A DNA stretch of 64,000 bases from Patescibacteria group bacterium (lineage in GTDB: Bacteria; Patescibacteriota; Microgenomatia; UBA1406; GWC2-37-13). Position numbers and translations under genes: made by a program. The stretch covers positions 49,178 to 113,177 of the forward strand of contig BPJC01000003.1 of NCBI GenBank assembly GCA_026004415.1. The letters run 5' to 3'. The notes under the pieces were generated by a model. The model made no database searches, was not told the DNA's origin, and saw only the letters and a program-made list of their open reading frames with translations. Shown here one piece after another: positions 6,665-54,256 of this stretch (its first letter is position 1; each line of letters starts with the position of its first letter).

Positions 6665-6937
6665 ATGGATTTTGACAGTGCCTTTCTAGCCGGAGTTCTA
6701 GGAGGTCTGGTTAGAGGCGTTGTTGGTATTGTTAAGTATTTTGAAAAGAACCAGAAAAATAGTAAAATTAACTGGTGGTATCTGTTTTTCTCTCTTTTTA
6801 CTGCTGGATTGGTAGGTGGTTTTGCAGGTGTTTTTGCCAATCATGACTGGCAATTTTCTTTTTTGGCAGGTTATGCTGGTGCAGATTTTTTAGAGGGTTT
6901 ATATAAAATAAGGTTACAGCAAAAATTTGAGATTTAG
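6665..6937 (+). CDS. Small hypothetical membrane protein (Gly-rich TM segments)
   Basis: 90-aa ORF with two or three hydrophobic Gly-rich segments; no recognisable family. Confidence 0.4.
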   Translation: MDFDSAFLAGVLGGLVRGVVGIVKYFEKNQKNSKINWWYLFFSLFTAGLVGGFAGVFANHDWQFSFLAGYAGADFLEGLYKIRLQQKFEI

Positions 6938-7703: not shown

Positions 7704-8804
7704 GTTTTTTTCAATAATGTTTAAGATGCCTTTTTTAAAACTGTCAAAACTAAATTTTTCTGCTGTTTTTCGGGCATTTTGTCTCATTTGGTCAAGTTCT
7801 TTTTGTGTCAAGTTCTCAAAAATATTGATCTGGTTTATTACAGAATCAACCTCAAGTTTGTCAAAAAATAATCCGTTTAGTTTGTCAACTAGGTATTCTG
7901 TTACGCCTCCCGATTTATAAGCTATTACTGGTACAGATCTTCCTAGAGCCTCAACAGGTGCTATGCCAAATTCTTCATCTTGACTGGCAAATACGAAGCC
8001 TTTAGCTTTTGCATATAAAGATTCCAGTTCTTTGTCCGAGACATTTCCAGCAAAAACTATGGTTTTTCCTGCCAGCTTTTGCAAATACTCTTTGTCTTTG
8101 CCTGTTCCAACTATAATGAGTTTGAGATTAAGTTTGTTGAAAGCCTGAATTAAAATATCTATGTTTTTTGCTTTTGCTAATCTTGATACTGTAAGATAAT
8201 AGTTGTCTGATTTGTTTGTTTTGGCATGTTTGGGTATATTTACAGGAGGGTAAACGATCTCTGAGTTCCTTCTGTAGAATTTGGCTATGCGACGCTGAGT
8301 TTCACGCGAGTTGGCTATGAGTATATCTGGTCTTTGAGAGGCTATAAAGTCGTACTGTCTTAAAAATTGGTTTATTAAAAGTCCGTAGAGCTTGATAATT
8401 TTATATTTTTGCCAGTTGATTGCTGTTTGATAATAATATAGGTATCTAGGTGGGTGGTGAATATAAGATATGTGAAGTGTTTGAGGCTTTGTAATTATAC
8501 CCTTGCACATCCAGGAACCTGTCGTTGAGATAACTAAATCGTAATTTGAAAAATCAAAACTCTCCCAGATCATAGGTGTTAAAAACCTTAATGGAGAGTA
8601 ATAATATTTTAGAACAGGAATCTTTCCAAACCAAGACTCAATGATTTTTGAGTTCTTAAATAAATCTTTGTGATTGCCTAGTTTGTTAAGGTCAGCTGTA
8701 GATGTGTAGATCTCTGCATTTGGAAAAATTTTAGTTAGCGCATATAAAACCCTTTCGGCTCCGCCAAATTCAACAAGTTGGTCGTGGACTATTGCTGTTT
8801 TCAT
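7692..8804 (-). CDS. Glycosyltransferase family 4 (GT-B, group 1)
   Basis: 370 aa; C-terminal EEFGIAPVEALGRSVPVIAYKSGGVTEY is the GT4 E-x7-E region. Confidence 0.8.
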   Translation of the reverse strand: MKTAIVHDQLVEFGGAERVLYALTKIFPNAEIYTSTADLNKLGNHKDLFKNSKIIESWFGKIPVLKYYYSPLRFLTPMIWESFDFSNYDLVISTTGSWMCKGIITKPQTLHISYIHHPPRYLYYYQTAINWQKYKIIKLYGLLINQFLRQYDFIASQRPDILIANSRETQRRIAKFYRRNSEIVYPPVNIPKHAKTNKSDNYYLTVSRLAKAKNIDILIQAFNKLNLKLIIVGTGKDKEYLQKLAGKTIVFAGNVSDKELESLYAKAKGFVFASQDEEFGIAPVEALGRSVPVIAYKSGGVTEYLVDKLNGLFFDKLEVDSVINQINIFENLTQKELDQMRQNARKTAEKFSFDSFKKGILNIIEKNLQT

Positions 8805-8821
8805 AAAGTATAATTATATCT

Positions 8822-9653
8822 ATGTTTGATACGCATTGCCATCTTAACTTTAAAGCATTTGAGTCCCAGGTTGATGATATTATCAAAGAATCTAAAAACT
8901 ATGGGGTTTATTATTTTATGATACCAGGCACAGATTATGCAACAAGCAAAAGAGCGGTTGAGATATCTGAAAAGTATAAAAATGCATTTTGTTCTGTAGG
9001 TTTGCATCCGCATCATATATATGAGTTTGTTCAAAAAAACATAGATATAGATGATTATGATTTTATAGGTTTTATTAAGGTTTTAGTTGAGTCAGATTCT
9101 GTTAAGGCTATAGGTGAAGTTGGGTTTGACAGACATGTGTATACTAAGACAAAGTATCAGAATTATAAAGTTAATGAAGTTTTTTTGAGTTTACAAAAAA
9201 AGTTGTTTATTAAGCAGTATGATATGGCACTTAAATTAGACAAGAGTTTAATAATTCATTGCAGAGAGGCTGAATCTGATTTGTTGGCTGTACTTGGCGA
9301 TGTGTGGGATAGCAAGATGCAAGGTAGAGCAGTGTTTCATTGTTGTCCCTGCCAGCGGAGATTTGCTTAAGTTTGCTTTAGAGCAAAAAGTTTTTATTGG
9401 AGTTGATGGAGATGCAACCTATGATCCCAGAAAACAGGCTTTTATTAAAAAAGTTCCGTTAGACTTATTAGTTTTGGAGACAGACTCTCCTTTTTTAATG
9501 CCTGAACCTATAAGATCTGAAAGGAGATTTCCAAATACACCAGCAAATTTAAGGTATATTGCCGAGATATGCGCTTATCTAAAAGATTTAAGAGTAGATG
9601 AAATAGTAAGAATTACCACTGAAAATGCATTTAAATTATTTAGATTAAAATAA
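8822..9653 (+). pseudogene. tatD: TatD-family metal-dependent hydrolase/DNase, interrupted by a single frameshift
   Basis: ORF 8822..9370 starts MFDTHCHLNF and runs to AVFHCC. ORF 9294..9653, one frame over, continues PASGDLLKFALEQKVFIGVDGDATY...LVLETDSPFL. The switch is at ~9344-9350 (TGTCCCT). Confidence 0.75.
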
Positions 9654-9657
9654 AATT

Positions 9658-10164
9658 GCCTTTTAGTTCCTAACTTTCGATGCCGTTTTTTACTTATAGT
9701 TAGCCTTTTAGTTCCTAACTTTCGATGGATGTGGTTGCTATTCCTTGCCTTTTAGTTCCTAACTTTCGATGTATTTTTTTTCTTTTTTTGGCCTTTTAGT
9801 TCCTAACTTTCGATGGTGTGGTTGCTATTCCTTGCCTTTTAGTTCCTAACTTTCGATGTATTTTTTTTCTTTTTTTGGCCTTTTAGTTCCTAACTTTCGA
9901 TGTAAATTTGTCGTTTTTTTGCCTTTTAGTTCCTAACTTTCGATGGGCACAGGGACACTATTTGCCTTTTAGTTCCTAACTTTCGATGTCTTGCTGTCGT
10001 TTGATTGGCCTTTTAGTTCCTAACTTTCGATGAACAAGTCCAATAAAACTAGCCTTTTAGTTCCTAACTTTCGATGGGAGTTATTATTATGTTTCGCCTT
10101 TTAGTTCCTAACTTTCGATGAAAAGAAAGATTTTATCAAGCCTTTTAGTTCCTAACTTTCGATG
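9658..10164 (-). CRISPR. CRISPR array: 12 identical 25-nt repeats, 11 spacers of 18-20 nt
   Basis: Repeat on + strand is GCCTTTTAGTTCCTAACTTTCGATG, starting at 9658, 9703, 9747, 9791, 9834, 9878, 9921, 9964, 10008, 10052, 10096 and 10140. Minus-strand transcription is inferred: there is no leader room on the low side (tatD stop is 4 nt away), and a minus-strand promoter abuts the repeat at 10164. Confidence 0.97.
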
Positions 10165-10193
10165 AGTATAACAAATTTAGATTTTTGTGTCAA
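10165..10193 (-). promoter_or_regulatory. Candidate sigma70-type promoter driving the CRISPR array (minus strand)
   Basis: Minus strand reads TTGACA (10193-10188), a 17-nt spacer ending TGT, then TATACT (10170-10165), directly abutting the terminal repeat. The predicted start falls ~6-8 nt into that repeat. Confidence 0.55.
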
Positions 10194-10211
10194 GTTTTAC
10201 AAAATTTATAA

Positions 10212-10241
10212 TTGACATTTATCTATTAGAAATTCTATAAT
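10212..10241 (+). promoter_or_regulatory. Candidate sigma70-type promoter for cas1
   Basis: TTGACA (10212-10217), 18 nt, TATAAT (10236-10241), located 44 nt upstream of the cas1 GTG. Confidence 0.5.
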
Positions 10242-10284
10242 TTTAGATAGATTTTTAGTTTTCAATATTTATTTTTTTCAGTTA

Positions 10285-11316
10285 GTGAAAATATCAAAAT
10301 ATTTTATTTGGTTACCTTATTTGACCAAAATTAAGGTATATCCAAGTTCAGTTTATTTTGAGTTTAAGGGAGGAGATCTTAAAATTGAATGGTCTAGAAT
10401 TCACTCTATTATGATCTACGGTAGTTCTGTTGATCTTCCTCATGATTTTTTAGACAAATGTTCTTTTTACAAAATCCCGATAGTTTTGCATAGAAGAAAT
10501 GTTGTAAGAGCTGTTTTTATTGCTCCTTGTCTTTCTGGAGATTCTGAGGATATTTTAAGTAAACAGATTTGTTTTAGAGATAACTATAAAAAAAGAGCAT
10601 ATATTGCAAAAAGGTTGCTTTTGGCCAAATTCAAAAGTATGTCTTGGCTTGTGCCTTATCGAAAAGATTATTTATATGGTGTTTCTGATATTGATAAGAT
10701 GGTTTCTTTTGAGGCGCATCACTCTAGAAGGTATTGGAAAGAATATTTTGGTTTATTAGGCAGTAGTTCCAGCAGAAGAGATTCAGATTCAGATTATAAG
10801 AAGGTTTTAGATGCTATTTCTAAGTTTGTCTCTGGTGTTTTGTTAAGATGGGTTGTTTATCATAATTTGAGTCCTTATCATGGATTCATTCATAAGCCTA
10901 ATGACTATCCTTCTTTAGTTTATGATCTTATGGAACCATATAGAGGTTATTTTGATAGGGTAGCTTTTGGTGTCTTTAAAAAAGTTAGTGATGCTGGCAT
11001 TGATAAAAAAAGGTGCCTTGGCCTTGCGATAGAGGAGATAAAAGAGTTTTTAGATATTAAGGTTTATGTTTCTGCAACAAGGCAAGTTGTTAAGTTTAAA
11101 GAGTTGTTGCATGGTGTAGTTATTGCTTTAAGATCTTATCTGTTAGGCAATACAAGAAGGTTTGTTGTTCCTTTGCCCAGCAAGCCAAAAGGTGGAAGAC
11201 CTGTTAATGCAGGTTATAAGCTTTATGGAGGTAACGCTGGTATTACTAATTTTTGGCCTGATACTAAAGAGTTGGCCTATAATTTTGAAAAAATATTCTT
11301 TGTTTCAGATCTGTAG
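10285..11316 (+). CDS. cas1: CRISPR-associated endonuclease Cas1 (stand-alone; no cas2/cas4 partner)
   Basis: 343 aa; EAHHSRRYWKEYF and YHGFIHKPNDYPSLVYDLMEPYR match the Cas1 catalytic H / D-x-x-E-P-(F/Y)-R blocks. Adjacent to the array. GTG start. Confidence 0.9.
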   Translation: MKISKYFIWLPYLTKIKVYPSSVYFEFKGGDLKIEWSRIHSIMIYGSSVDLPHDFLDKCSFYKIPIVLHRRNVVRAVFIAPCLSGDSEDILSKQICFRDNYKKRAYIAKRLLLAKFKSMSWLVPYRKDYLYGVSDIDKMVSFEAHHSRRYWKEYFGLLGSSSSRRDSDSDYKKVLDAISKFVSGVLLRWVVYHNLSPYHGFIHKPNDYPSLVYDLMEPYRGYFDRVAFGVFKKVSDAGIDKKRCLGLAIEEIKEFLDIKVYVSATRQVVKFKELLHGVVIALRSYLLGNTRRFVVPLPSKPKGGRPVNAGYKLYGGNAGITNFWPDTKELAYNFEKIFFVSDL

Positions 11317-14300
11317 CCAACTTATATTTTTTATTGTTTTGTTTTTTAAGAATTCGATAGTTTCTTTGAATGTATCTTTTGATTCATCTTTAGTTTGATT
11401 TTGGTTTCTAAGAAGCATTGTATAACCTCTAACTGCCATAATAAAAGATGCTTGTTTGTCTGCGTCAGCTATGAAGTTGCAGTCTGAGTTTGGACAGATA
11501 AATAAAAAGCTGTTTCCTCTTTTGTTTTTTAAATCATATATTTTTTGTAGGTTATTGTTGTCTTTGTTTGTTTGGATCAGACTTGAACTGCTTTTGTTAA
11601 GAGGAGGTCTTGCAAAGTCCTTGACTATTTTTTGAAACTCTTTCAATGCATTTTTGTTATTGCCAATCTTTGGTATATTTTGGCTGTATGCTTTTAAGGT
11701 TTTGTTCCCTATTGTGATTTTTAGTAAATGTTTGTTTTCTGGGTTTGATTCTATTTTAATGTCTTTTAGGTCGTCTTTACTTATTTCATATAAACTAGTT
11801 TTACATTTGGCGCAGGTATAGCTTGAGGCATATGCGCTGACATGTTTGCCTGGGTATTTACTTCTTTTTCCCCAGATGTGTTCGTGAAGGTTATTGTTTT
11901 CTTGATATACGTCAGATTTTTTTACTGTATTATAGATTTTTGTTGTTCTGCCACTGCCAGTTTCAAAATTACTTATTGAGTATTCGTAGATAATATAGCT
12001 TGGTTTATATTTTAAAATAAGATTGTGAATTTTGTTTCTTAATGAACCAGCGGCATTTTCTCTTACTTGAGCAACTTTGTCACTTTTGTTTTTAAATAGT
12101 CCTTTTCTAGCTTGTTGTTGAATTAGTTGGAAGTTGTCTTTAATTTTGCCTATGTTGGGCTCTATTATAAAGTCTGATTCAAGAATTTCAACCTCTTGGT
12201 CGTTTACTTTAATTACTGAGTAAGCCAATCCATACTCTCCAACATCTATGCCTATTATGGGTCTGTTTAGAGATTCTGGCGCTTTTTGAATTTGTAATAA
12301 ACTTCTGTCGGGATTCTGTAATGGTTCTATATTAAAAGGTATGCTAATGTAAAGTCTGTTTTTATCTCTATTAGTTGGTGTGAATGTTGGTACTTTTTTA
12401 TTTAGATCCCAGATTATTTTGTATTCTTTCTCAAGTATCAAGCTCCACTCACCTAATTTAATTTTATGACTTTGCCAGCTTTTAGGTTTATATAGAAATC
12501 TATCTAAAAATTGGATTTGATAGTATGATGAGTTTATTTTTAATGCATTTGACAGTTGTTCTTCAGATATTTTGCTGTCTGTTATTTGGTTTTTTATGAG
12601 GTTGAGCGCTTTTGTTGATTTGTTTCCTGAATTTTTGGTAAATGTTATTACATAGTTATGCTTATTTGCAACTATGTCTTTTAGGTTTGGCTTGTCTTGG
12701 TTAAGGAGGTCGGAAATTAAAAATAGTTTGTATTTTTTGTCTATAGCTATAAATTGACAGGTGTATTTTGCTGTGTATAGTTCTTGGGTATAGATTGTTG
12801 CAAAGCCTTTTATTTCAGATAGAATAAGAGACTGGAGCAGGTAGTTGTACTCATTTTTGGTTATTTGCTGGCTTTTTATAAGTTTAAGATATGTGTTTGC
12901 TTTTGTGAATGAGTCTGGTATTTTTAGGTCGTTTTTATTGATTATTTCTATTTTTGAGAGCTTGATAAGTTTTGATATTAGATGTCTAGATAAGTCTAAA
13001 AAGTCAAGCAACTGTTCTTTGTTTTTTAATATTTCTGTTGGGTCCTGTTTTATTAAGGATAATAGTTCGTCTATTAGTTGTTTAAAGATTTTGTTTGGTT
13101 GACCGTTTATGTTTATTGTTTTTTGTGTGCCTTTGGCATATTCGCTTTTGTAAAAACAAATATGATTTAATCTATTATTTTTAATAATATCTTTAATCAC
13201 TGGTGCAGTTTTTATTAGTATTCTTGTATAACTTTCTTTGTAATACTGGCTGTTTACAGAGTTTGTTTTTAATTTATTTAATATAAAATTGAGTGTTTTT
13301 CTTAATTCTATTTCATCGTTGAGTTTTTCTATGTCAATTGAGTCAAAGATTAGTTTAAGGTGCTTTAATATAAATTCAGTTCCGGTTTCAATAGTTTCAA
13401 TGGTGTTTTTAAAGATTTTTTCATTGTTTTTTAGAATTACAGTACCGTAAAAACTTGCTGGTCTATATATATTGTTGAAGTATCTTTTTATAAGATGCTC
13501 TGATTCTTCGTTGTTGTCTGATATTTTTTGAAAGTAAAAGTTTGCTTTTTTCTTTAGTTCTGAAATTAGATTTTGAATAACTTCATTTTGTTCTGGGTGT
13601 TGAAGAGTATTCGGGTTGTTTTCTATTATTTCAAGTATTTGTTTCGCTTGTCTACTCACTTCTGTTTTTTGATCTGTTTGATCATCTTGATTGTTGTCTA
13701 TCTCTTTTATAAGTTCTTTAAGGTTGTTTTTGAATTGAGTTGTTTGTTCTATTATGTCTTTTTGTCTTTTTAACATATTACTTATCCAGCTTTTTATTTT
13801 GCCAAAGTTTATTCTATACTCAGACCAGCTATTTATTTCAGGCATAGTAGGTTTCTCTAATTTTTTTGATTGATTAGATAAGTACTCCAGCGCCTTTAGT
13901 ACTTGTTCTTGTTCTTCTTGTTGATATTTATAGATTTTGTTGATTGCTTCAAAGATTTCTGTTGTTCTGTTTTTTTGTAAACTAGTTAAAACTTTGCCGT
14001 AATAGTTTGCCATGCCATTAAAGTTGTCATCTGTTAGAACAATGCTGATTAGTACTTTTTCTATATCGTTAGTTTTTATGTTAATTTTTTCTTTTAACCA
14101 CAACTTTCTTATCTCAATTAGCTGTTCTATAGTTATGTCTTTTTCTTGGGTTATAAGTTCTGGGATTATAATAAATGTCAGTTTATCATATGGTTTGTCT
14201 GGTCTGAGATCATCTAATAATGATTTTTTAAGATCAAATTGTTGTTCCCAGAATTTTATTTGTTCTAAATTGTTCAGCTTAAGTTTTCCTTTTTCGTTAA

Positions 14301-14877
14301 AAAAGGATTCTACTATGAATTCTATAATTTCATTAGCTTGTGGTTGAATAGTTTTGTTTTTTTCATCAGTTATTTGATCTTTTTTTAGTATTTTTAAAAG
14401 CCTATTTTTGAATGATTTTTTAGTTGTTGTTGGTCTCACAGATTCAGACATTAGAATTTCATTAAATATTCCTTCATATGTAAATGTTTGTAGTAATTTA
14501 GAAGATGATTTAGTTATTATTTTTTCAATCAGAGAGTTTTCTTTTAGTATATATTGTTGTGTAAATCCGATAATGGCATTGCCTGATGATTGCCAGATAA
14601 CACCTGCTTTTAAAGAGTCTATCCAGAAGTCAATTATTGTATAAAAATTATGGTTATTGTTATAGTATTGGTAATAGTCATTTAAATTTACGCAACCTCG
14701 GATTTTTAAATCGTCTTTTACAATCGCTGTGGATATTTTTTCTATAAGTTCTTGATTGGTTAAGTTCTTTGAGTATGTTTCAAGTGGATATTTTATGCTT
14801 CTTATAACTGGTTTTTGAGATAATTGTAGTCTTTTCTGATGTAGTTTATAACCTGTGTTTATAAACTTCCTGCTCAC
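11305..14877 (-). CDS. cas12d: Type V single-effector nuclease, Cas12d/CasY-like (1190 aa)
   Basis: - RuvC-I: PIIGIDVGEYGLAY (D878, nt 12244-12246).
- RuvC-II: YIIYEYSISNFE (E965, nt 11983-11985).
- RuvC-III: ADADKQASFIMA (D1140, nt 11458-11460).
- Cys4 insertion: CAKC (1022/1025) ... CPNSDC (1128/1133).
- No HNH. The first ~870 aa have no motif I recognise.
- N-terminal GYKLHQKRLQ...SIKYPL and C-terminal RGNSFLFICP...ADADKQAS resemble CasY proteins as I remember them.
- GTG start immediately after an in-frame TAA. Confidence 0.9.
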   Translation of the reverse strand: MSRKFINTGYKLHQKRLQLSQKPVIRSIKYPLETYSKNLTNQELIEKISTAIVKDDLKIRGCVNLNDYYQYYNNNHNFYTIIDFWIDSLKAGVIWQSSGNAIIGFTQQYILKENSLIEKIITKSSSKLLQTFTYEGIFNEILMSESVRPTTTKKSFKNRLLKILKKDQITDEKNKTIQPQANEIIEFIVESFFNEKGKLKLNNLEQIKFWEQQFDLKKSLLDDLRPDKPYDKLTFIIIPELITQEKDITIEQLIEIRKLWLKEKINIKTNDIEKVLISIVLTDDNFNGMANYYGKVLTSLQKNRTTEIFEAINKIYKYQQEEQEQVLKALEYLSNQSKKLEKPTMPEINSWSEYRINFGKIKSWISNMLKRQKDIIEQTTQFKNNLKELIKEIDNNQDDQTDQKTEVSRQAKQILEIIENNPNTLQHPEQNEVIQNLISELKKKANFYFQKISDNNEESEHLIKRYFNNIYRPASFYGTVILKNNEKIFKNTIETIETGTEFILKHLKLIFDSIDIEKLNDEIELRKTLNFILNKLKTNSVNSQYYKESYTRILIKTAPVIKDIIKNNRLNHICFYKSEYAKGTQKTININGQPNKIFKQLIDELLSLIKQDPTEILKNKEQLLDFLDLSRHLISKLIKLSKIEIINKNDLKIPDSFTKANTYLKLIKSQQITKNEYNYLLQSLILSEIKGFATIYTQELYTAKYTCQFIAIDKKYKLFLISDLLNQDKPNLKDIVANKHNYVITFTKNSGNKSTKALNLIKNQITDSKISEEQLSNALKINSSYYQIQFLDRFLYKPKSWQSHKIKLGEWSLILEKEYKIIWDLNKKVPTFTPTNRDKNRLYISIPFNIEPLQNPDRSLLQIQKAPESLNRPIIGIDVGEYGLAYSVIKVNDQEVEILESDFIIEPNIGKIKDNFQLIQQQARKGLFKNKSDKVAQVRENAAGSLRNKIHNLILKYKPSYIIYEYSISNFETGSGRTTKIYNTVKKSDVYQENNNLHEHIWGKRSKYPGKHVSAYASSYTCAKCKTSLYEISKDDLKDIKIESNPENKHLLKITIGNKTLKAYSQNIPKIGNNKNALKEFQKIVKDFARPPLNKSSSSLIQTNKDNNNLQKIYDLKNKRGNSFLFICPNSDCNFIADADKQASFIMAVRGYTMLLRNQNQTKDESKDTFKETIEFLKNKTIKNISWLQI

Positions 14878-14897
14878 TTAATTAAAAAAATTTTTGT

Positions 14898-14971
14898 GAG
14901 CCTTTGCAGTAAAAGGCAACGATTTACAAAAATGTAAATCGGGAAACCGCAAAGGCTCTGAGTTAGGAACT
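14898..14971 (-). ncRNA. Candidate scoutRNA/tracr-like RNA with repeat-complementary segments
   Basis: - Perfect 10-bp long-range stem: GAGCCTTTGC (14898-14907) / GCAAAGGCTC (14949-14958).
- Inner 8-bp hairpin: GATTTACA-AAAA-TGTAAATC (14921-14940).
- AGTTAGGAACT (14961-14971) is the exact reverse complement of repeat positions 8-18.
- TAAAAGGC (14910-14917) is the reverse complement of repeat positions 1-8.
- Minus strand chosen because of the promoter at 14980-15007 and a downstream U-tract. Strand is not proven. Confidence 0.6.
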
Positions 14972-14979
14972 CAATTAAT

Positions 14980-15007
14980 TTTATATCATATTATTTTAAA
15001 TTGTCAA
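14980..15007 (-). promoter_or_regulatory. Candidate promoter for the anti-repeat RNA / cas12d transcript
   Basis: Minus strand reads TTGACA (15007-15002), a 16-nt spacer ending TGA, then TATAAA (14985-14980). The predicted start is ~14971-14974, at the first anti-repeat segment. Confidence 0.5.
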
Positions 15008-15030
15008 TATTGTATAATGTATACAGGTGT

Positions 15031-15969
15031 ATGAAAGATAAAAATTTTTTAGTTAGTGTTGTGATCCCTGTTTACAATGAAGAACAGGCTTTGCCTAAAT
15101 TGTTTCCTCGTCTTTTGCCTATATTGGAAAAATACAATTATGAGTTGATATTTGTTGATGATGGATCTAAAGATGCTTCTGTTGAGATTATCAAGGAAAA
15201 GGCAAGGTCTAATCCAAGAATAAAGTTAATCTCTTTTCAGAGAAATTTTGGACATCAGATGGCTTTAACCTGTGGCTATGATAATTGTAGAGGTGATTGT
15301 GTTATAACTTTAGATGCTGATTTGCAAGATCCTCCTGAACTTATAGATAAAATGATTGTTAAATGGCAGGAAGGTTACGATATTGTTTATGGTCAACGGT
15401 TGGATCGTCAGACTGATTCTTTTTTCAAAAGAACTACCGCAGATTATTTTTATAAGTTTATGAATTATTTATCTGATGTAAAAATCCCTGAACATGTTGC
15501 TGATTTTAGACTTTTGGATAAAAAGGTTGTTGTTTTTTTGAAAACTTTAAAAGAACGATCAAGGTTTTTGAGAGGTTTAGTCGTTTGGCCTGGTTTCAGA
15601 TCTACTGTAGTGCGTTATAAAAGAGAAAAGAGATCTGCAGGTACTACACATTATAGTTTGAGGAAAATGTTTGCTTTTGCTTTTGAAGGTATTATCTCTT
15701 TTTCTACGCGACCTTTGCAGTTGGCTACTTATTTGGGCTTTATAAGCGCTTTTCTAGGTTTTATTGGCATAGTGTATGCTGTTATTGGTAAGTTTGTTTT
15801 TTCTCATTACTGGGTTACCGGCTGGACTGCTTTGTTTGTGAGCATTATGTTTATGGGCGGTGTTCAGCTTATTGCAATAGGTATAATAGGAGAGTATGTT
15901 GGAAAGATTTATAAAGAAGTTCAGCAAAGACCTTTGTATTTAATAAAAGAAAAGGTAAATTTTGATTAA
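15031..15969 (+). CDS. GT2 polyprenyl-phosphate glycosyltransferase (GtrB/ArnC/DPM1-like)
   Basis: VSVVIPVYNEE, FVDDGSKD and LDADLQDPPE are GT2 motifs, plus two C-terminal TM helices typical of lipid-carrier-charging GT2 enzymes. ATG 15031 preferred to the track TTG 15001. An extended -10 TGTATAAT lies at 15011-15018. Confidence 0.85.
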   Translation: MKDKNFLVSVVIPVYNEEQALPKLFPRLLPILEKYNYELIFVDDGSKDASVEIIKEKARSNPRIKLISFQRNFGHQMALTCGYDNCRGDCVITLDADLQDPPELIDKMIVKWQEGYDIVYGQRLDRQTDSFFKRTTADYFYKFMNYLSDVKIPEHVADFRLLDKKVVVFLKTLKERSRFLRGLVVWPGFRSTVVRYKREKRSAGTTHYSLRKMFAFAFEGIISFSTRPLQLATYLGFISAFLGFIGIVYAVIGKFVFSHYWVTGWTALFVSIMFMGGVQLIAIGIIGEYVGKIYKEVQQRPLYLIKEKVNFD

Positions 15970-15971
15970 AT

Positions 15972-16136
15972 ATGTCTGTTTTTAGGGTTATTGCAAAGTT
16001 TAGATGGCTATTTTTGGTTGTTGGTTTAATCCTGTTTGCTTATTTTGTTTTTAAGTATATAAATCAGGATAAACAGTTTCTGTCTCCTGTGCCTATTGAG
16101 AATGATATTAAGGTTATTCAATTGAAGGGGTCTTAA
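15972..16136 (+). CDS. Possible small single-pass membrane protein (54 aa)
   Basis: ATG ORF MSVFRVIAKFRWLFLVVGLILFAYFVFKY... lies 2 nt after the GT2 stop, below the track length cut-off. Only the ORF, TM segment and tight spacing support it. Confidence 0.3.
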   Translation: MSVFRVIAKFRWLFLVVGLILFAYFVFKYINQDKQFLSPVPIENDIKVIQLKGS

Positions 16137-16146
16137 TTTTTTTGTT

Positions 16147-17811
16147 ATGAAGAAAATTACATGGAGAAAAGATCTTTCTATTATTGATAATCTAACTGAA
16201 GATTTAGTAGTTAAGGAGTTGATCAGACTTAGAGATCTTCAGGATTTGACTGATGAGGAGTTCTATGATACTGATTTGAATACTTTGGGTTTTTCAAATG
16301 AGCTTGCTATTCTTCTTGATTTGTTGTCTTTTGTCAAAAAAAAGAAAAAAAAGATTGTTGTGTATACAGATTATGATGCTGATGGTATTACAGGAGGCGC
16401 TATAATGTGGGAGAGTTTGTATCTTTTAGGGTTTGATGTTATGCCGTATGTGCCAGATCGTAAAACAGAGGGTTATGGTTTTTCTGTTGGAGGCCTTGAT
16501 TATGTTAAAAAGACTTATGATCCTGGTTTGATAATCAGCGTTGATCATGGCATCTCTGCTAGGGAAAAGATAGAGTATGCTAAGACTAAACTTGGAATTC
16601 CTATTGTTGTTACTGATCATCATTTAAAACCAAAGCTGTTGCCAGAATCTGCAGAGGCTATTATTCATATGGATTTTTTATCCGGATCAGGAGTTAGTTT
16701 TTTTACTGCAAAGTCTATTGTAAGGAAATTAGCTAAAAATAATGATAATGAGATAAATAAAAATTTTCAGGTAGATTATACAGTTTTGGCAAGCATTGGC
16801 ACAGTTGCTGATTTGGTTCCTCTTATAGGGTTGTCAAGGCAGTTAGTTAAAAAAGGGTTAGTTAATTTTTCAAAGTCAAATAGAGTGGGTTTGAGACAGT
16901 TGTTGAAAAACGCTGGTATTGATAATAAAAAGATCTCTCCGTATGATATTGGTTTTATTATTGCTCCAAGAATAAATGCCGCTGGAAGGCTTGAGTCTGC
17001 TTTGACTGCTTTGCAATTATTGTGTACAAAAAGTCCGGAAAGAGCATCTGTTTTAGCTTCAAAACTGAGTCAGTTGAACAGTGATCGTCAAGATTTAGTA
17101 GAGGAGTTTTTTAAACAGATAGAGCAAAAATATAGCAGTTTGCCAAAACTGCCAAAGATAATTCTTGAGTACAGCCCTGATTTGCAGGAAGGTATTATTG
17201 GCTTGATAGCTTCAAGGTTAGTTGAAAGATTCAACAGACCTAGTATTGTGTTTACAGATTCTGATGGGTTTATTAAAGCGTCAGCAAGATCTGTTGAAGA
17301 TCTTCATATTACTAATTTTTTGAGAAAGTCTGGAGATTTGCTTGTTGAGGTTGGTGGCCATAAACAAGCCGCAGGACTAAAGGTCTCCAAAGAGAACTTT
17401 GCTGATCTTAAGTTGTTTTTAAATAATTTGGCAGATAAAGAGGTTACTGATAATATGTTAGTAAAAAAGATAACGGCTGATTTTAAAGTCAGGCTAGACC
17501 AGCTTTCTGAAGATCTATATTTTAAACTTTTAAGTCTGGAGCCTTTTGGTGTTGGTAATCCTAAACCTAGTTTTTATTCTAAGGTTAGAGTTGTTTCAGC
17601 TAGACTGTTTGGAAAGAATAATGAGCATACAAAGCTGACTGTTTCCGATGGTTTTGGTCAGATTGATCTGCTGGCTTTTAGAAATGAAAGACTATTTTTT
17701 AAAGTTCATAGAGATGAACAGATACATGTTGTTTTTAATCTTGCTGTAGATAGGTGGAACAATAGAACTTGTCTGAATGGAATGTTGATTGATTACAGTT
17801 TAGCTGGTTAA
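16147..17811 (+). CDS. recJ: Single-stranded-DNA-specific exonuclease RecJ
   Basis: DHH-family motifs YTDYDADGITG, SVDHG and VTDHH, followed by the DHHA1 region; 554 aa. Confidence 0.9.
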   Translation: MKKITWRKDLSIIDNLTEDLVVKELIRLRDLQDLTDEEFYDTDLNTLGFSNELAILLDLLSFVKKKKKKIVVYTDYDADGITGGAIMWESLYLLGFDVMPYVPDRKTEGYGFSVGGLDYVKKTYDPGLIISVDHGISAREKIEYAKTKLGIPIVVTDHHLKPKLLPESAEAIIHMDFLSGSGVSFFTAKSIVRKLAKNNDNEINKNFQVDYTVLASIGTVADLVPLIGLSRQLVKKGLVNFSKSNRVGLRQLLKNAGIDNKKISPYDIGFIIAPRINAAGRLESALTALQLLCTKSPERASVLASKLSQLNSDRQDLVEEFFKQIEQKYSSLPKLPKIILEYSPDLQEGIIGLIASRLVERFNRPSIVFTDSDGFIKASARSVEDLHITNFLRKSGDLLVEVGGHKQAAGLKVSKENFADLKLFLNNLADKEVTDNMLVKKITADFKVRLDQLSEDLYFKLLSLEPFGVGNPKPSFYSKVRVVSARLFGKNNEHTKLTVSDGFGQIDLLAFRNERLFFKVHRDEQIHVVFNLAVDRWNNRTCLNGMLIDYSLAG

Positions 17812-17866: not shown

Positions 17867-19858
17867 ATGTCAATAAAATATAATAAGAGTTTTCTTCAGT
17901 TTTTAGTATTGCCTGCTTTATTGGTTTCTATAATTTTTAGTTACTTTGTTGTTGCCAATAATGATTTGTTGTTTCTTTTACCTAAAGCAGAAGGGGATGT
18001 GACCTTTTATAAAGACTCTTCTAACCCTCCTTTCTTGTTTTTTTTCAACTCTTATGACAACAAGGAGTTTATGTGTTTTCAAAGAGAAAACAGGGAAGCA
18101 GGAGAGGTAGATAAGTCTGTTCCTTGGGATGCCTGGTTGATAAATAAAACTGAAAACTGTACTGATACATGGAATTGGTATTTTAATAGGGTTGGTACTA
18201 CTCCTAATCTGCCTGCAGATAAATCCGGTTATGTTAACTTATGTCGAACGCCACAGTATGATCAAACTGTTTGTTTGTCTAAAGTAAGGCCGCAACAGCC
18301 TACTCCTACTCCACAACCTGATACAGATTTAGAGCCTTCACCAACCTTGACTCCAACACCTGTTCCAGCTGATAATCAGGGTTCAAACTCAACTTCAGAC
18401 AATACTTCATCTAATCCAACACCAACTTCTGCGTCGGTAACAAATACTGCTCAGCTTTGTTTTTACAATACAGCAGAGATTTATATTAATTGTTTAAAAA
18501 CTAAAAATAACTGTGTTTTTTCTACTCATATTAAGTTTAACAATGACGATTCAAGTCTAAAAAATACTGGAGATATAAAACTAGAAAGAAGCAATGATGG
18601 AAAATCTTTTAAACATATTGCTGGCCCTAACAAATGGGAGAAAGATTCTTTAAAGTTTAATTATTCTCCTGAATGGACAGGAGGAGATGTTATGCTGAAT
18701 TTAGATAAAGATAATTCAGCAACAATTTATTGGAAAGGCAAATTCAATGGGTGTGTTGGTTCTGAAAATAAAGAAATTGAAGATATGTTAGAATGTGAGT
18801 TTTCTGTTAATGGTGGATTGCCATCTGTTAAGGGCTCTGGTTGTTATGTAAAAGATATCATAGTTGAGCATGAGACTCAAAAGAGTTCTGATTCTAACTC
18901 TGGTACTTCATCTAATTCCAACTCTGGTACTTCATCTAATTCCAACTCTGGTACTTCATCTAATTCCAGCTCTGGTACTGTATCTAATTCTAACTCTGGT
19001 TCTTCATCTGGCTCCAATTCTGGTACTTCATCTAATTCCAGCTCTGGTACTGCATCTAATTCCAACTCTGGTTCTTCACAAGTTGATGATTCAGGGACCT
19101 CTACGAGTAATGACAGTGGTTCAAGTCAAACTGTAAGCTGTCTTGCAAATTGTTTTTCTACAGCTACAGTTGAGACTGCAGTAAGAAGATGTGTAGTTGA
19201 TAATAATAATAATAATTATAGATGTATACCACAAGTAAATTTGTGTTCTAATGTTTCTTGTAGAGGCGAAGATGAAGGCGTTTTGGTGTCTACAAAATAC
19301 TATAAAAACGAGGATTCTTCTGAGGAGTATCTGTTATATAATTCAAGCAATTGTTCTGGTCAGCCTCAAATGTATAGAGATCAAAGAACTTTAGAGGCTA
19401 TCTGTGGAAAAACAAAGAGAAATATAAGAGTTAGCTATGAAGATTACAGACTGGATCTAAACCATGAACCTGGGTTTTCCAAAGATTTAAAATTGGTTTC
19501 AGCTTATATCTTAGTAATACAAGAAAAAAACGGAATTTATTTCCCGATCTCTGATAATATTTATTTATATAAAGATCAGCAAGACTCTAATATATTTGGT
19601 TATCATTTAAAAAATAACTTTAAAACTATTAGTATAGAGATATCAAAATTTTCTTTTTTATTAACGGATAAGTATAGGATAAATCCTGAAAACAACAAAC
19701 TAAACAGTAATAATTTTGTTATTTTAAATCTAGAATTTGATAGAAATATATCAAATGATATGCCCCATACGATATTTATATTAATAGGTCGTTTTGGTTA
19801 TAAAACAAGTTATGTTTTTTCAAATTTATCAGTTGTTGATTTACAAAATTCTAAATAG
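17867..19858 (+). CDS. Hypothetical secreted/cell-surface protein with PT-rich linker and Ser/Asn-rich tandem repeats
   Basis: N-terminal hydrophobic anchor, a PT-rich stretch (QQPTPTPQPDT...) and (SGTSSNSN)n low complexity. Many Cys. No family recognised. Confidence 0.6.
   Translation: MSIKYNKSFLQFLVLPALLVSIIFSYFVVANNDLLFLLPKAEGDVTFYKDSSNPPFLFFFNSYDNKEFMCFQRENREAGEVDKSVPWDAWLINKTENCTDTWNWYFNRVGTTPNLPADKSGYVNLCRTPQYDQTVCLSKVRPQQPTPTPQPDTDLEPSPTLTPTPVPADNQGSNSTSDNTSSNPTPTSASVTNTAQLCFYNTAEIYINCLKTKNNCVFSTHIKFNNDDSSLKNTGDIKLERSNDGKSFKHIAGPNKWEKDSLKFNYSPEWTGGDVMLNLDKDNSATIYWKGKFNGCVGSENKEIEDMLECEFSVNGGLPSVKGSGCYVKDIIVEHETQKSSDSNSGTSSNSNSGTSSNSNSGTSSNSSSGTVSNSNSGSSSGSNSGTSSNSSSGTASNSNSGSSQVDDSGTSTSNDSGSSQTVSCLANCFSTATVETAVRRCVVDNNNNNYRCIPQVNLCSNVSCRGEDEGVLVSTKYYKNEDSSEEYLLYNSSNCSGQPQMYRDQRTLEAICGKTKRNIRVSYEDYRLDLNHEPGFSKDLKLVSAYILVIQEKNGIYFPISDNIYLYKDQQDSNIFGYHLKNNFKTISIEISKFSFLLTDKYRINPENNKLNSNNFVILNLEFDRNISNDMPHTIFILIGRFGYKTSYVFSNLSVVDLQNSK
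18887..19078 (+). repeat. 24-nt (8-codon) in-frame tandem repeat, ~8 copies
   Basis: TCTGGTACTTCATCTAATTCCAAC and close variants are repeated head to tail from 18899. They encode SGTSSNSN units inside ORF 17867..19858. Confidence 0.9.
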
Positions 19859-52574: not shown

Positions 52575-54209
52575 TTATTTGGGTAATTTTCTAGATCCCA
52601 GTAATAGCTTACTGGTTTTAATTTTTTTTATTAAATCTATTGAGTTTTCAATAGGAGTTATATTTTTTTTCCATCTTTTATCAGAAGGTAAATAACTTCC
52701 AGTTGTGTAAACATTTCCTGTGAAATAACCAGCATAGCAGGTGTAACCTGAAGGGCAGGTGCTATTTACAGATCCTACAATTCCGGCGGCATAGTTCGAT
52801 AAATCATTTTGGTAGCCTATGCCACCGGCAGTAAGCCAGTTATTTCCTGCAGAGTTTAATAAGGTTCCATGAATTGCAACTCTGTAATTAGAACTAGTAC
52901 TTGTTCCTAATTCTTTAGCTATTGCTTCTATGGTGTGGTAACTTCCTGATGAAACAGATGGATCATAAGCATAAATCGATGTAAGTGCGTTATTTGTAGT
53001 ATAAGGAAGGTTTGTTGTTGATGATTTAGCTACATGTAAAATACTATCTGGGTTTGTAAGACCTATTCCAACATTTCCTCCACTTGGGTTGATTATAAAT
53101 TTGGTAGGAGAGTTAGAACTATTATACGCTTGTAGGCCGGTTACACTTGAAACATTTCCAAACAATATATAATCTCCGCTTCCAATAGTTGATCTTATTG
53201 AACCTTGTACATCAAGTTTATACTGCGGATTCGTCGTCCCGATGCCGACATTGCCAGTGTCAACAGTAATTGAACCATCTCTAAAAGATATTTGAGGATC
53301 TGTTGTGCCAGTGTTGTAAGTCCAGGTGAAGACAGAGCCGGAACCCCAAGTTACAGAGGCAAGTTCAGTTGGATCAAAGGCAACAGTTGGAGACCATCCT
53401 TCACCTGCAGTTCCTGTAACATCAATATAATTTCCCGCAGTGATTCCAGCAACATAATTGCCGGTAGTTTCTGATCCTAAGGCAATACAATTTGTACATG
53501 TTATTCCTCCATCTGCATTTATATCTCCTGAGAAATAAGCCGTACCTGCAACATATAGTTTATATGATCCCGGACTCGTCGTTCCGATGCCGACATTGCC
53601 AGTGTCAACAGTAATTGAACCATCTCTAAAAGATATTTGAGGATCTGTTGTGCCAGTGTTGTAAGTCCAGGTGAAGACAGAGCCGGAACCCCAAGTTACA
53701 GAGGCAAGTTCAGTTGGATCAAAGGCAACAGTTGGAGACCATCCTTCACCTGCAGTTCCTGTAACATCAATATAATTTCCCGCAGTGATTCCAGCAACAT
53801 AATTGCCGGTAGTTTCTGATCCTAAGGCAATACAATTTGTACATGTTATTCCTCCATCTGCATTTATATCTCCTGAGAAATAAGCCGTACCTGCAACATA
53901 TAGTTTATATGATCCCGGACTCGTCGTCCCGATGCCGACATTGCCAGTGTCAACAGTAATTGAACCATCTCTAAAAGATATTTGAGGATCTGTTGTGCCA
54001 GTGTTGTAAGTCCAGGTGAAGACAGAGCCGGAACCCCAAGTTACAGAGGCAAGTTCAGTTGGATCAAAGGCAACAGTTGGAGACCATCCTTCACCTGCAG
54101 TTCCTGTAACATCAATATAATTTCCCGCAGTGATTCCAGCAACATAATTGCCGGTAGTTTCTGATCCTAAGGCAATACAATTTGTACATGTTATTCCTCC
54201 ATCTGCATG
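52575..54209 (-). pseudogene. Middle fragment of the giant surface-fibre gene (contains the 3 x 115-aa repeats; no start codon of its own until TTG 53165)
   Basis: The minus-strand frame is open from 54209 to 52575. It encodes three identical 115-aa units (...GNVGIGTTSPGSYKLYVAGTAYFSGDINADGGITCTNC...), then ...GNVGIGTTNPQYKLDVQG..., and ends PSDKRWKKNITPIENSIDLIKK, the start of the S74 domain. The track only reports 52575..53165. Confidence 0.7.
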
Positions 54210-54256
54210 TTATATCTCCTGAGAATATAAGCCGTACCTGCAACATATAGTTTATA
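53222..54256 (-). repeat. Three head-to-tail 345-bp (115-codon) near-perfect tandem repeats inside the giant gene
   Basis: Positions p and p+345 are identical over ~53240-53911 except one mismatch (53238 C vs 53583 T). This is reflected by three identical antisense ORFs at 53292, 53637 and 53982. The top copy carries two extra bases (G 54209 and T 54226). Confidence 0.95.

What the first reader, a model, noticed from the sequence alone, without database searches (positions are those of the whole stretch)
9658..10164. Unusually short spacers (18-20 nt), perfectly uniform repeats, and minus-strand orientation of the array
All 12 repeats are identical (GCCTTTTAGTTCCTAACTTTCGATG on +). Spacers are 20, 19, 19, 18, 19, 18, 18, 19, 19, 19 and 19 nt, or 17-19 if the repeat is called as 26 nt. 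Typical CRISPR spacers are ~30-40 nt, so this implies a distinct ruler in the Cas1-only acquisition step and a short guide.

The low-coordinate end of the array starts 4 nt after the tatD stop codon. The leader must therefore be the 120-nt AT-rich segment at 10165-10284, and the crRNA repeat reads CAUCGAAAGUUAGGAACUAAAAGGC. Its only self-structure is a weak AGUU-AGG-AACU hairpin, which fits a requirement for a trans-acting RNA.

Several spacers are extremely low complexity (for example TATTTTTTTTCTTTTTTTG).
Basis: seen in the sequence. Interest (0 to 1): 0.7.

Follow-up and report, generated by a model that had tools for sequence, protein, structure and literature searches.

The report
Typical Cas12d (CasY) CRISPR array
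The short-spacer repeat array is real and is read on the minus strand, but it is an ordinary type V-D (Cas12d/CasY) CRISPR array whose 18-20 nt spacers, Cas1-only neighbour and need for a helper "scoutRNA" (which I located next to cas12d) are already known hallmarks of that family.

Summary
Observation confirmed. There are 12 identical 25-nt repeats at 9658-10164 and 11 spacers of 18-20 nt. Only 9-10 spacers are distinct, because an 87-nt two-spacer unit is duplicated.

The neighbours are cas1 (10285-11316, +) and a full-length cas12d/casY (11305-14877, -; NCBIfam Cas12d 1098 bits). There is no cas2 or cas4.

In 24 related arrays the repeat is also 25 nt, and 291 of 322 spacers are 18-19 nt. 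The lengths are therefore a family trait and not an assembly artefact. The literature already describes 17-19 nt CasY spacers.

Four results support minus-strand reading:
- The repeat matches the experimentally active KbCas12d crRNA (…AAAGGC followed by the spacer).
- A conserved promoter abuts repeat 1.
- In relatives, degenerate repeats occur only at the cas1-distal end.
- Some pairs with the helper RNA are G·U.

The predicted trans-acting RNA exists. A scoutRNA gene lies at about 14972-14884 (-), with strong covariation support and a covariance-model E-value of 8e-11.

In this clade the scout 5' end also pairs with repeat nt 8-18 (10-13 bp, covarying). This resembles the solved Cas12c2 guide scaffold. 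No credible protospacers were found.

Verdict: a new member of a known kind; low interest for the array itself.

The parts
9658..10164 (-). CRISPR array with 12 identical 25-nt repeats (crRNA sense CATCGAAAGTTAGGAACTAAAAGGC) and 11 spacers of 18-20 nt. The leader-proximal repeat is 10164->10140.
   Evidence: Orientation.
9730..9902 (.). Internal duplication of a two-spacer unit (9730-9815 equals 9817-9902 exactly, offset 87 nt). The spacer AAGGAATAGCAACCACA(T)C occurs as 19-nt and 18-nt versions. The spacer CAAAAAAAGAAAAAAAATA occurs twice.
10165..10284 (.). Leader and divergent promoter region. On the minus strand, TTGACA (10193-10188), a 17-nt spacer and TG-extended TATACT (10170-10165) fire into the array. 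On the plus strand, TTGACA-18-TATAAT (10212-10241) faces cas1.
   Evidence: Comparative conservation of the arrangement.
10285..11316 (+). cas1, the only adaptation gene. It is divergent from the array and convergent with cas12d, overlapping it by 12 nt.
   Evidence: (Pfam Cas_Cas1, 65.3 bits).
11305..14877 (-). cas12d (casY) effector, 1190 aa, full length, with the RuvC acidic residues conserved (D878, E965, D1138/D1140 are invariant among 12 homologues).
   Evidence: (NF033951, 1098 bits, cut-off 250, model positions 2-1178 of 1180).
14884..14972 (-). scoutRNA gene. It contains the 5' anti-repeat AGUUCCUAACU (14971-14961), stem 1 (14958-14946 with 14910-14898), the UUUCC linker, a variable hairpin, the dock GCCUUUUA (14917-14910) and a U-run (14890-14884).
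   Evidence: The covariance model built without this sequence gives 58.5 bits, E = 8e-11, at 14895-14974 on the minus strand.
14978..15007 (-). Promoter-like site for the scoutRNA (TTGACA-18-TAAAAT, 11/12). The predicted transcription start lies at the first bases of the 5' anti-repeat.
   Evidence: Equivalent -10 boxes lie 6-8 nt upstream of the element in relatives.

Best explanation
This is the CRISPR array of a complete type V-D (Cas12d/CasY) system in a Patescibacteria (CPR) genome.

Inferred from family knowledge: Cas1 alone, without Cas2 or Cas4, inserts spacers of about 18-19 bp at the leader-proximal repeat on the cas1 side (10164). The small Cas1-only integrase sets the short length.

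Inferred from the sequence and its relatives: the array is transcribed on the minus strand from a promoter that abuts repeat 1. This gives crRNAs of the form 5'-repeat(…AAAGGC)-spacer-3'.

The repeat has no hairpin of its own. It is held by a separately transcribed scoutRNA encoded just upstream of cas12d. The scout's GCCUU(UUA) loop pairs with the invariant repeat 3' end (U)AAAAGGC. In this clade the scout's 5' end AGUUCCUAACU also pairs with repeat nt 8-18. Together these build a pseudoknotted scaffold like that of Cas12c2.

Inferred by homology: Cas12d with crRNA and scoutRNA then cuts DNA that matches the 18-20 nt guide next to a 5'-TA/TG PAM.
For: - Effector: NCBIfam Cas12d at 1098 bits over its full length. 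The homologues are named Cas12d and come from Patescibacteria/Microgenomates MAGs.
- Adaptation module: cas1 only.
- Family-wide geometry: 25 arrays all have 25-nt repeats, and 291 of 322 spacers are 18-19 nt.
- Orientation: the active KbCas12d crRNA has the same repeat frame and places the spacer 3'. A promoter abuts repeat 1. In the leaders of most relatives I read, by eye, -10 elements facing the array within about 25 nt of repeat 1, and degenerate repeats occur only at the distal end. Intermolecular G·U pairs are possible only in this sense.
- scoutRNA: a conserved element lies upstream of cas12d in about 27 loci. It has 25 pairs, 17 with compensatory changes. 96.6% of cells are paired, against 31-49% when partners are slid, and 0 of 500 shuffles reach that value. 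It folds at -35.1 kcal/mol with z = -9. An independent covariance model hits it with E = 8e-11. Its layout matches the published KbCas12d scoutRNA1: stem, UUUCC, hairpin, GCCUU, stem.
- Pairing with the repeat: the dock pairs over 5-9 bp and the 5' element over 10-13 bp in 14 of 14 loci, with covariation at repeat positions 8, 14 and 18. Cognate pairs beat shuffled pairs in all 20000 permutations. The cofold uses the intermolecular duplex.
- Literature: 17-19 nt spacers (PMC6546366); Cas1-only adaptation in V-C/V-D (PMC6977970, PMC9419969); the Cas12c2 scaffold topology (PMC9522604).
Against: - No expression data exist for this organism, so strand, transcription starts and mature ends are inferred.
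- No protospacer or PAM could be identified, so current activity is unproven.
- Two spacers are duplicated and three are of low complexity.
- The promoter scan found no more sites in the region than its shuffled controls did (22 found against a mean of 24.9). Promoter calls therefore rest on position and conservation, not on statistics.
- Cas1-only integration has been shown experimentally only for V-C, not V-D.
- The permutation test for scout-repeat covariation ignores phylogenetic relatedness.
Confidence: 0.9

Rival explanations
1. The short spacers are an assembly artefact: a collapsed or mis-joined array whose true spacers are about 30 nt.
For: An exact 86-nt internal duplication shows the region is repetitive and could be prone to mis-assembly. 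The contig is a MAG contig.
Against: 24 arrays from independent assemblies and samples have the same 25-nt repeat and 16-22 nt spacers with a mode of 18-19. The literature reports 17-19 nt for CasY (PMC6546366). An active KbCas12d crRNA carries an 18-nt spacer.
Confidence: 0.02
2. The array is transcribed on the plus strand by read-through from tatD, giving crRNAs that start with GCCUUUUAG….
For: tatD ends 4 nt upstream on the plus strand with no terminator called between them. Complementarity between repeat and scout is formally strand-symmetric.
Against: The functional KbCas12d crRNA reads …AAAGGC followed by the spacer. The scout's strand is fixed by its promoter, its U-run and an invariant G·U pair. 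G·U pairs between scout and repeat in L018 and L023 would become A·C on the other strand. The leader promoter and the position of degenerate distal repeats in relatives point the same way.
Confidence: 0.04
3. The locus is a decaying or inactive relic. The array is no longer expanded or used, which would explain the duplicated and low-complexity spacers and the lack of targets.
For: Two duplicated spacers, and 3 of 10 low-complexity spacers against about 7% expected. No credible protospacer was found. The adjacent tatD is frameshifted.
Against: All 12 repeats are identical. cas12d and cas1 are intact and full length with conserved catalytic residues. The scoutRNA, its promoter and the array promoter are intact. 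Duplicated spacers also occur in relatives L025, L030 and L035. With 18-19-nt spacers and a viral database lacking this habitat's phages, missing protospacers are expected.
Confidence: 0.1
4. The scout 5' element (AGUUCCUAACU) does not pair with the crRNA. It would be just a 5' hairpin of the scoutRNA, or an evolutionary remnant of an antisense repeat.
For: The element can fold on itself as a 5-6-bp hairpin. The minimal KbCas12d scoutRNA1 lacks any such element and still works in vitro. In helix 1 of the alignment only 1 of 5 pairs shows a double change.
Against: The element's loop is complementary to the loop of the repeat palindrome and covaries with it: in L021 the repeat has G14U and the scout has C>A. 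G·U pairs occur in L018 and L023. In L009, L013, L014 and L017 the intermolecular duplex (10 bp) is better than the repeat's own hairpin. The cofold prefers the intermolecular duplex. Repeats of this clade have lost the intramolecular hairpin present in CasY.1-type repeats. Cas12c2 has an equivalent pairing (R:AR-1) at the same place in the RNA (PMC9522604).
Confidence: 0.3

Closest known systems
KbCas12d / CasY.1 type V-D system (Katanobacteria; Burstein 2017; bioRxiv 10.1101/2023.12.12.571249)
   Same: The components are cas1, cas12d of about 1200 aa and an array. Repeats are 25-26 nt and end in AAAGGC. Spacers are 17-19 nt and lie 3' of the repeat. The scoutRNA has the layout stem, UUUCC, hairpin, GCCUU, stem.
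   Different: The CasY.1-type repeat folds into its own 6-bp hairpin (-7.4 kcal/mol), whereas the repeat here has none. In CasY.1-like loci (L028-L036) the array lies upstream of cas12d, whereas here it lies beyond cas1. The scout here has an extra 5' anti-repeat. The covariance model of this clade's scout does not detect the CasY.1-like loci.
Hot-spring and groundwater Microgenomates/Patescibacteria Cas12d loci (L002, L004-L006, L012-L025, L030; compare the Roizmanbacteria CasY of PMC6509639)
   Same: Gene order is the same: scout, cas12d, convergent cas1, leader, array. Repeats are identical or nearly identical: L004, L005, L006 and L012 carry exactly the window's repeat although their Cas12d is only 36-50% identical. 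The scoutRNA is the same.
   Different: Spacers differ; none is shared with the window. Many relatives carry two extra hairpins between the dock and stem 1. The distance between the array promoter and repeat 1 varies.
Type V-C Cas12c2 crRNA:tracrRNA (scoutRNA) scaffold, cryo-EM structure (PMC9522604)
   Same: It is the sister effector family; the Cas12c model hits this protein weakly, at 57 bits. Adaptation is Cas1-only, with short repeats and spacers. The order of elements in the helper RNA is the same: 5' anti-repeat, stem 1 5' strand, linker, stem 2, linker, dock, stem 1 3' strand. The dock pairs with the last nucleotides of the repeat.
   Different: The 5' anti-repeat duplex is 4 bp in Cas12c2 and 10-13 bp here. 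No equivalent of the third duplex (R:AR-3) was found. No Cas12d structure exists to confirm the analogy. The effector is below the Cas12c cut-off, so it is not V-C.

Membership tests
Type V-D CRISPR-Cas (Cas12d/CasY) | Cas12d effector with an intact RuvC | tested here: met
   NF033951 scores 1098.1 bits against a cut-off of 250, covering residues 8-1153 and model positions 2-1178 of 1180. D878, E965 and D1138/D1140 are invariant among 12 homologues. The D-to-E spacing of 87 compares with 86 in KbCas12d D827/E913.
Type V-D CRISPR-Cas (Cas12d/CasY) | Adaptation module is cas1 alone, without cas2 or cas4 | tested here: met
   Only cas1 lies between cas12d and the array. The neighbours are FBPase, DeoC, TrmD, GT4, tatD, GT2 and recJ, and the small ORFs have no Cas2/Cas4 hits. 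Only about ±5 kb was screened by HMM.
Type V-D CRISPR-Cas (Cas12d/CasY) | Repeats of 25-26 nt and spacers of about 17-19 nt | tested here: met
   The repeat is 25 nt and the spacers are 18-20 nt. The family distribution peaks at 18-19. Literature: PMC6546366 and bioRxiv 10.1101/2023.12.12.571249.
Type V-D CRISPR-Cas (Cas12d/CasY) | Repeat homologous to the functional Cas12d crRNA repeat, with the spacer 3' of …AAAGGC | tested here: met
   CAUCGAAAGUUAGGAACUAAAAGGC compares with the KbCas12d repeat cuccgaaaguaucggggauaaaggc. AAAGGC is invariant in all 25 arrays.
Type V-D CRISPR-Cas (Cas12d/CasY) | scoutRNA gene with a conserved short motif complementary to the repeat | tested here: met
   Located at 14972-14884 on the minus strand. 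Structure covariation. Covariance model E = 8e-11. GCCUU is invariant and pairs with AAGGC. Whether GCCUU is the published 'conserved five nucleotides' could not be checked, because Harrington 2020 is not held.
Type V-D CRISPR-Cas (Cas12d/CasY) | 5'-TA/TG (TR) PAM next to protospacers | tested here: inconclusive
   Seven viral-contig scans were run. Five spacers gave 0 hits. A 17-mer gave 12 hits and an AT-rich 19-mer gave 22 hits, both at chance level and without PAM enrichment.
Type V-D CRISPR-Cas (Cas12d/CasY) | crRNA and scoutRNA are expressed, and DNA cleavage depends on both | not testable with these tools
   This needs RNA-seq or biochemistry.
Type V-C CRISPR-Cas (Cas12c) | Cas12c effector | tested here: not met
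   NF033950 scores only 57.3 bits against a cut-off of 250 and covers only the RuvC region.

The most novel reading that the evidence does not exclude
In this large Cas12d clade the 'short-complementarity' scoutRNA would really be a tracrRNA with a split, permuted anti-repeat. Its first 11-13 nt pair with repeat nt 8-18 and its internal GCCUU(UUA) loop pairs with nt 18/21-25, so about 18 of the 25 repeat nucleotides are held in trans. The trans duplex would have replaced the intramolecular repeat hairpin of CasY.1-type systems. In the window's subclade, because the array promoter abuts repeat 1, the primary transcript would start almost exactly where this pairing begins. I could not check whether this was already reported for Cas12d15, because Harrington 2020 is not held.
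Probability: 0.5. Interest if true: 0.4.

Novelty: new member of a known kind. Interest (0 to 1): 0.2.

Why it matters
For the array itself, not much. It adds one more intact V-D locus, whose effector is named only 'hypothetical protein KatS3mg090_0608' in the public record. It confirms that short spacers, Cas1-only adaptation and scoutRNA dependence travel together.

The comparative set built here covers 25 arrays and about 27 scoutRNA genes. It gives a sequence-based model of how the Cas12d crRNA and scoutRNA dock. No Cas12d relative was detected among solved structures by sequence search. That model could guide single-guide RNA design for this compact nuclease family, and it suggests that V-C and V-D share one pseudoknotted guide scaffold.

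Tried and rejected
- Rfam: no family matched 8000-16500 even at E <= 1, so scoutRNA is apparently not in Rfam.
- Papers not held: Harrington 2020, Burstein 2017 and Wright 2019. Their content is cited only through other papers, or from memory where I say so.
- Protospacers: I searched the window and the 43 loci with up to 2 mismatches and ran 7 IMG/VR scans. One group (L048, L050, L052, L054) has a TA flank and matches 18 of 19 nt. It is a single independent event among about 7 chance 17-mer hits, and no other spacer matches those contigs, so I rejected it.
- Spacer position 2: the window shows 'A' at this position in 10 of 11 spacers, but this does not generalise (93 of 312).
- Joint alignment: a single MAFFT alignment of short and long scout forms misaligned the 3' strand, so I analysed the two forms separately.
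- CasY.1-like loci: the scout covariance model of this clade does not find their scouts. Those were compared by eye only.
- PDB: a sequence search found no Cas12d structure.

Full report
**1. The observation**

The window holds 12 exact copies of GCCTTTTAGTTCCTAACTTTCGATG between 9658 and 10164. Start-to-start spacings are 43-45 nt, which gives spacers of 20,19,19,18,19,18,18,19,19,19,19 nt. This is as reported.

One feature was not reported. The stretch 9730-9815 recurs exactly at 9817-9902. The low-complexity spacer therefore occurs twice. Its neighbour occurs as a 19-nt and an 18-nt version (AAGGAATAGCAACCACATC and …CACAC in crRNA sense).

The repeat has no stable fold on either strand, with an MFE of 0 kcal/mol.

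**2. Context**

- The ORF at 10285-11316 (+) is Cas1 (Pfam 65 bits).
- The ORF at 11305-14877 (-) is a full-length Cas12d/CasY. NCBIfam NF033951 scores 1098 bits against a cut-off of 250. The Cas12c model scores only 57 bits.
- No cas2 or cas4 is nearby. The flanks are housekeeping genes: FBPase, DeoC, TrmD, two glycosyltransferases, a split tatD and recJ.
- The identical protein is on record as a hypothetical protein of the Patescibacteria MAG KatS3mg090.

This is therefore a type V-D locus in a CPR bacterium.

**3. Is the spacer length real and special?**

I fetched 43 loci that encode Cas12d relatives at 26-50% identity. Arrays were found in 24 of them.
- All have 25-nt repeats.
- Pooled with the window, 322 spacers measure 16:3, 17:16, 18:155, 19:136, 20:10, 21:1, 22:1.

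The lengths are a family constant across independent assemblies and not a collapse artefact.

They are also already published.
- CasY arrays have 17-19-bp spacers (PMC6546366; bioRxiv 10.1101/2023.12.12.571249).
- V-C and V-D carry Cas1 without Cas2.
- A V-C Cas1 tetramer suffices for integration into a 25-bp repeat (PMC6977970; PMC9419969).

From memory, Wright et al. 2019 reported a 17-19-bp preference. That paper is not held.

**4. Orientation and leader**

Five lines agree on minus-strand crRNAs with the leader at 10165-10284.

(a) The in-vitro-active KbCas12d crRNA is 5'-cuccgaaaguaucggggauaaaggc-spacer-3'. The window's minus-strand repeat CAUCGAAAGUUAGGAACUAAAAGGC shares the CGAAAGU and AAAGGC blocks. 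AAAGGC is invariant in all 25 arrays.

(b) In 23 of 24 relatives this sense is the cas12d strand, as it is here.

(c) A minus-strand TTGACA-17-(TG)TATACT promoter ends at 10165, directly against repeat 1. A perfect plus-strand TTGACA-18-TATAAT at 10212-10241 faces cas1. In the relatives, cas1 always starts about 105 nt from repeat 1 and diverges from it. By my reading of the leader sequences, a -10 box that is often TG-extended faces the array, abutting repeat 1 or within about 25 nt of it.

(d) In relatives, degenerate terminal repeats occur only at the cas1-distal end: L012, L013, L019, L028-L030 and L033-L036.

(e) Pairing with the scoutRNA includes G·U pairs that would be A·C on the other strand.

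A caveat applies to (c). The promoter scan as such finds no more sites in the region than its shuffled controls do. The weight therefore lies in position and conservation.

**5. The trans-acting RNA**

Upstream of cas12d on the minus strand the sequence reads as follows:
- a promoter (15007-14978);
- GAGUUCCUAACUC;
- a 13-bp stem (GAGCCUUUGCGGU with ACUGCAAAGGCUC);
- UUUCC;
- a 9-bp hairpin;
- single-stranded UUGCCUUUUA;
- a U-run.

The same element precedes cas12d in about 27 related loci.

On 12 short-form sequences RNAalifold predicts 25 pairs, and 17 of them show double compensatory changes.
- 96.6% of cells are paired, against 31-49% when partners are slid by 1-3 columns.
- 0 of 500 column shuffles reach the observed pairing or covariation score.

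The window sequence folds at -35.1 kcal/mol with z = -9.

I built a covariance model from 10 relatives, excluding the window and its closest relative.
- It finds one strong hit in the 64-kb window, at 14895-14974 on the minus strand, with 58.5 bits and E = 8e-11.
- The only other hits are weak matches antisense to CRISPR repeats.

The layout matches the published minimal KbCas12d scoutRNA1: aaaggg-uuucc-hairpin-uuagccuucca-cccuuu.

**6. How scout and repeat dock**

GCCUU is invariant. It pairs with the invariant repeat 3' end AAGGC over 5-9 contiguous bp, and over 8 bp in the window.

The scout's first nucleotides, AGUUCCUAACU, are also complementary to repeat nt 8-18.
- The duplex is 10-13 bp in 14 of 14 loci that carry both elements.
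- Changes are correlated at repeat positions 8, 14 and 18. In L021 the repeat has GUUAGUAAC and the scout has GUUACUAAC. L018 and L023 show G·U pairs.
- Cognate pairs beat shuffled pairings in all 20000 permutations. This test is not corrected for phylogeny.

RNAcofold of the window crRNA with its scout uses this intermolecular duplex, at -50.6 kcal/mol.

Repeats of this clade lack the 6-bp hairpin of CasY.1-type repeats, which folds at -7.4 kcal/mol. The trans duplex therefore plausibly substitutes for that hairpin.

The order of elements is 5' anti-repeat, stem 1, linker, stem 2, linker, dock, stem 1. This is the order seen in the cryo-EM structure of the sister enzyme Cas12c2, where the 'scoutRNA' proved to pair with the repeat through several duplexes (PMC9522604).

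The PDB sequence search found no Cas12d relative. I could not check whether Harrington et al. 2020 already noted the 5' element.

**7. Targets**

There is no self-match with 2 or fewer mismatches, apart from low-complexity near-hits.

Seven exact-match scans of IMG/VR gave the following.
- Five spacers had no hits.
- A 17-mer had 12 hits.
- The AT-rich newest spacer had 22 hits.

I judge both hit counts to be about what chance would give (my own rough estimate from the size of the collection). None of the 22 hits has a TA/TG flank. One related group of 17-mer hits has a TA flank and an 18/19 match, but nothing else supports it.

The PAM and current activity therefore remain untested. Short guides make such searches weak, as the literature also notes (PMC6546366).

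**8. Verdict**

What was flagged as unusual is the textbook signature of type V-D, so this is a new, intact and un-annotated member of a known kind.

The most interesting by-product is the sequence-based docking model for the Cas12d crRNA and scoutRNA.

Noticed in passing
window 8822-9653 (+): tatD is split into two overlapping ORFs in different frames: 8822-9370 covers TatD model positions 1-154 and 9294-9653 covers 161-253. The frame switches just after the FHC motif, around 9340-9350. This is either a real frameshift pseudogene or a 1-nt assembly error.
   Followed up: partly
window 14961-14971 (-) against repeats 9658-10164; L021, L018, L023, L009: The 5' end of the scoutRNA is a 10-13-nt anti-repeat to repeat nt 8-18 and covaries with it. 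Repeats of this clade lack the intramolecular hairpin of CasY.1-type repeats.
   Followed up: yes
L004, L005, L006, L012 against the window: The 25-nt repeat is identical in loci whose Cas12d proteins are only 36-50% identical to the window's. The repeat and scout docking surfaces are therefore far more constrained than the protein.
   Followed up: partly
25 arrays (window and L002-L036): The first spacer nucleotide after …AAAGGC is A or T in 253 of 312 unique spacers, whereas the spacers overall are 60% A+T. This could be an integration bias, a processing bias, or a semi-conserved 26th repeat position.
   Followed up: no
window 10165-10170 and leaders of L004-L006, L012-L014, L021, L032: In this subclade the -10 box of the array promoter directly abuts repeat 1. 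Transcription should then start about 6-8 nt inside the first repeat, close to where scout pairing begins (nt 8).
   Followed up: partly
L002, L003, L004, L006, L009, L012-L014, L022, L023, L043: A 'long form' of the scoutRNA carries two extra GC-rich hairpins inserted between the GCCUU dock and the 3' strand of stem 1. Only the first of the two was predicted by RNAalifold, with few compensatory changes.
   Followed up: partly
window 53226-54292: A 345-nt unit is repeated 3.1 times at 99% identity. It lies in a region of raised G+C (0.44 at 54-56 kb, against about 0.32 for the window). It may be a repetitive surface-protein gene or foreign DNA.
   Followed up: no
window 18887-19078, inside ORF 17867-19858 (+): A 24-nt unit is repeated 8 times (TCTAATTCCAACTCTGGTACTTCA, an 8-residue Ser/Asn/Thr-rich peptide repeat). 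It sits inside a 663-aa ORF with no Pfam match.
   Followed up: no
window 6665-6937 (+): A 90-aa ORF has a weak, sub-threshold match to a phage holin family (PF16083, 24.5 bits against a cut-off of 28.4).
   Followed up: no
L009: This is the only relative whose array lies upstream of cas12d and on the opposite strand. It still has the same repeat type and a scoutRNA upstream of cas12d.
   Followed up: no
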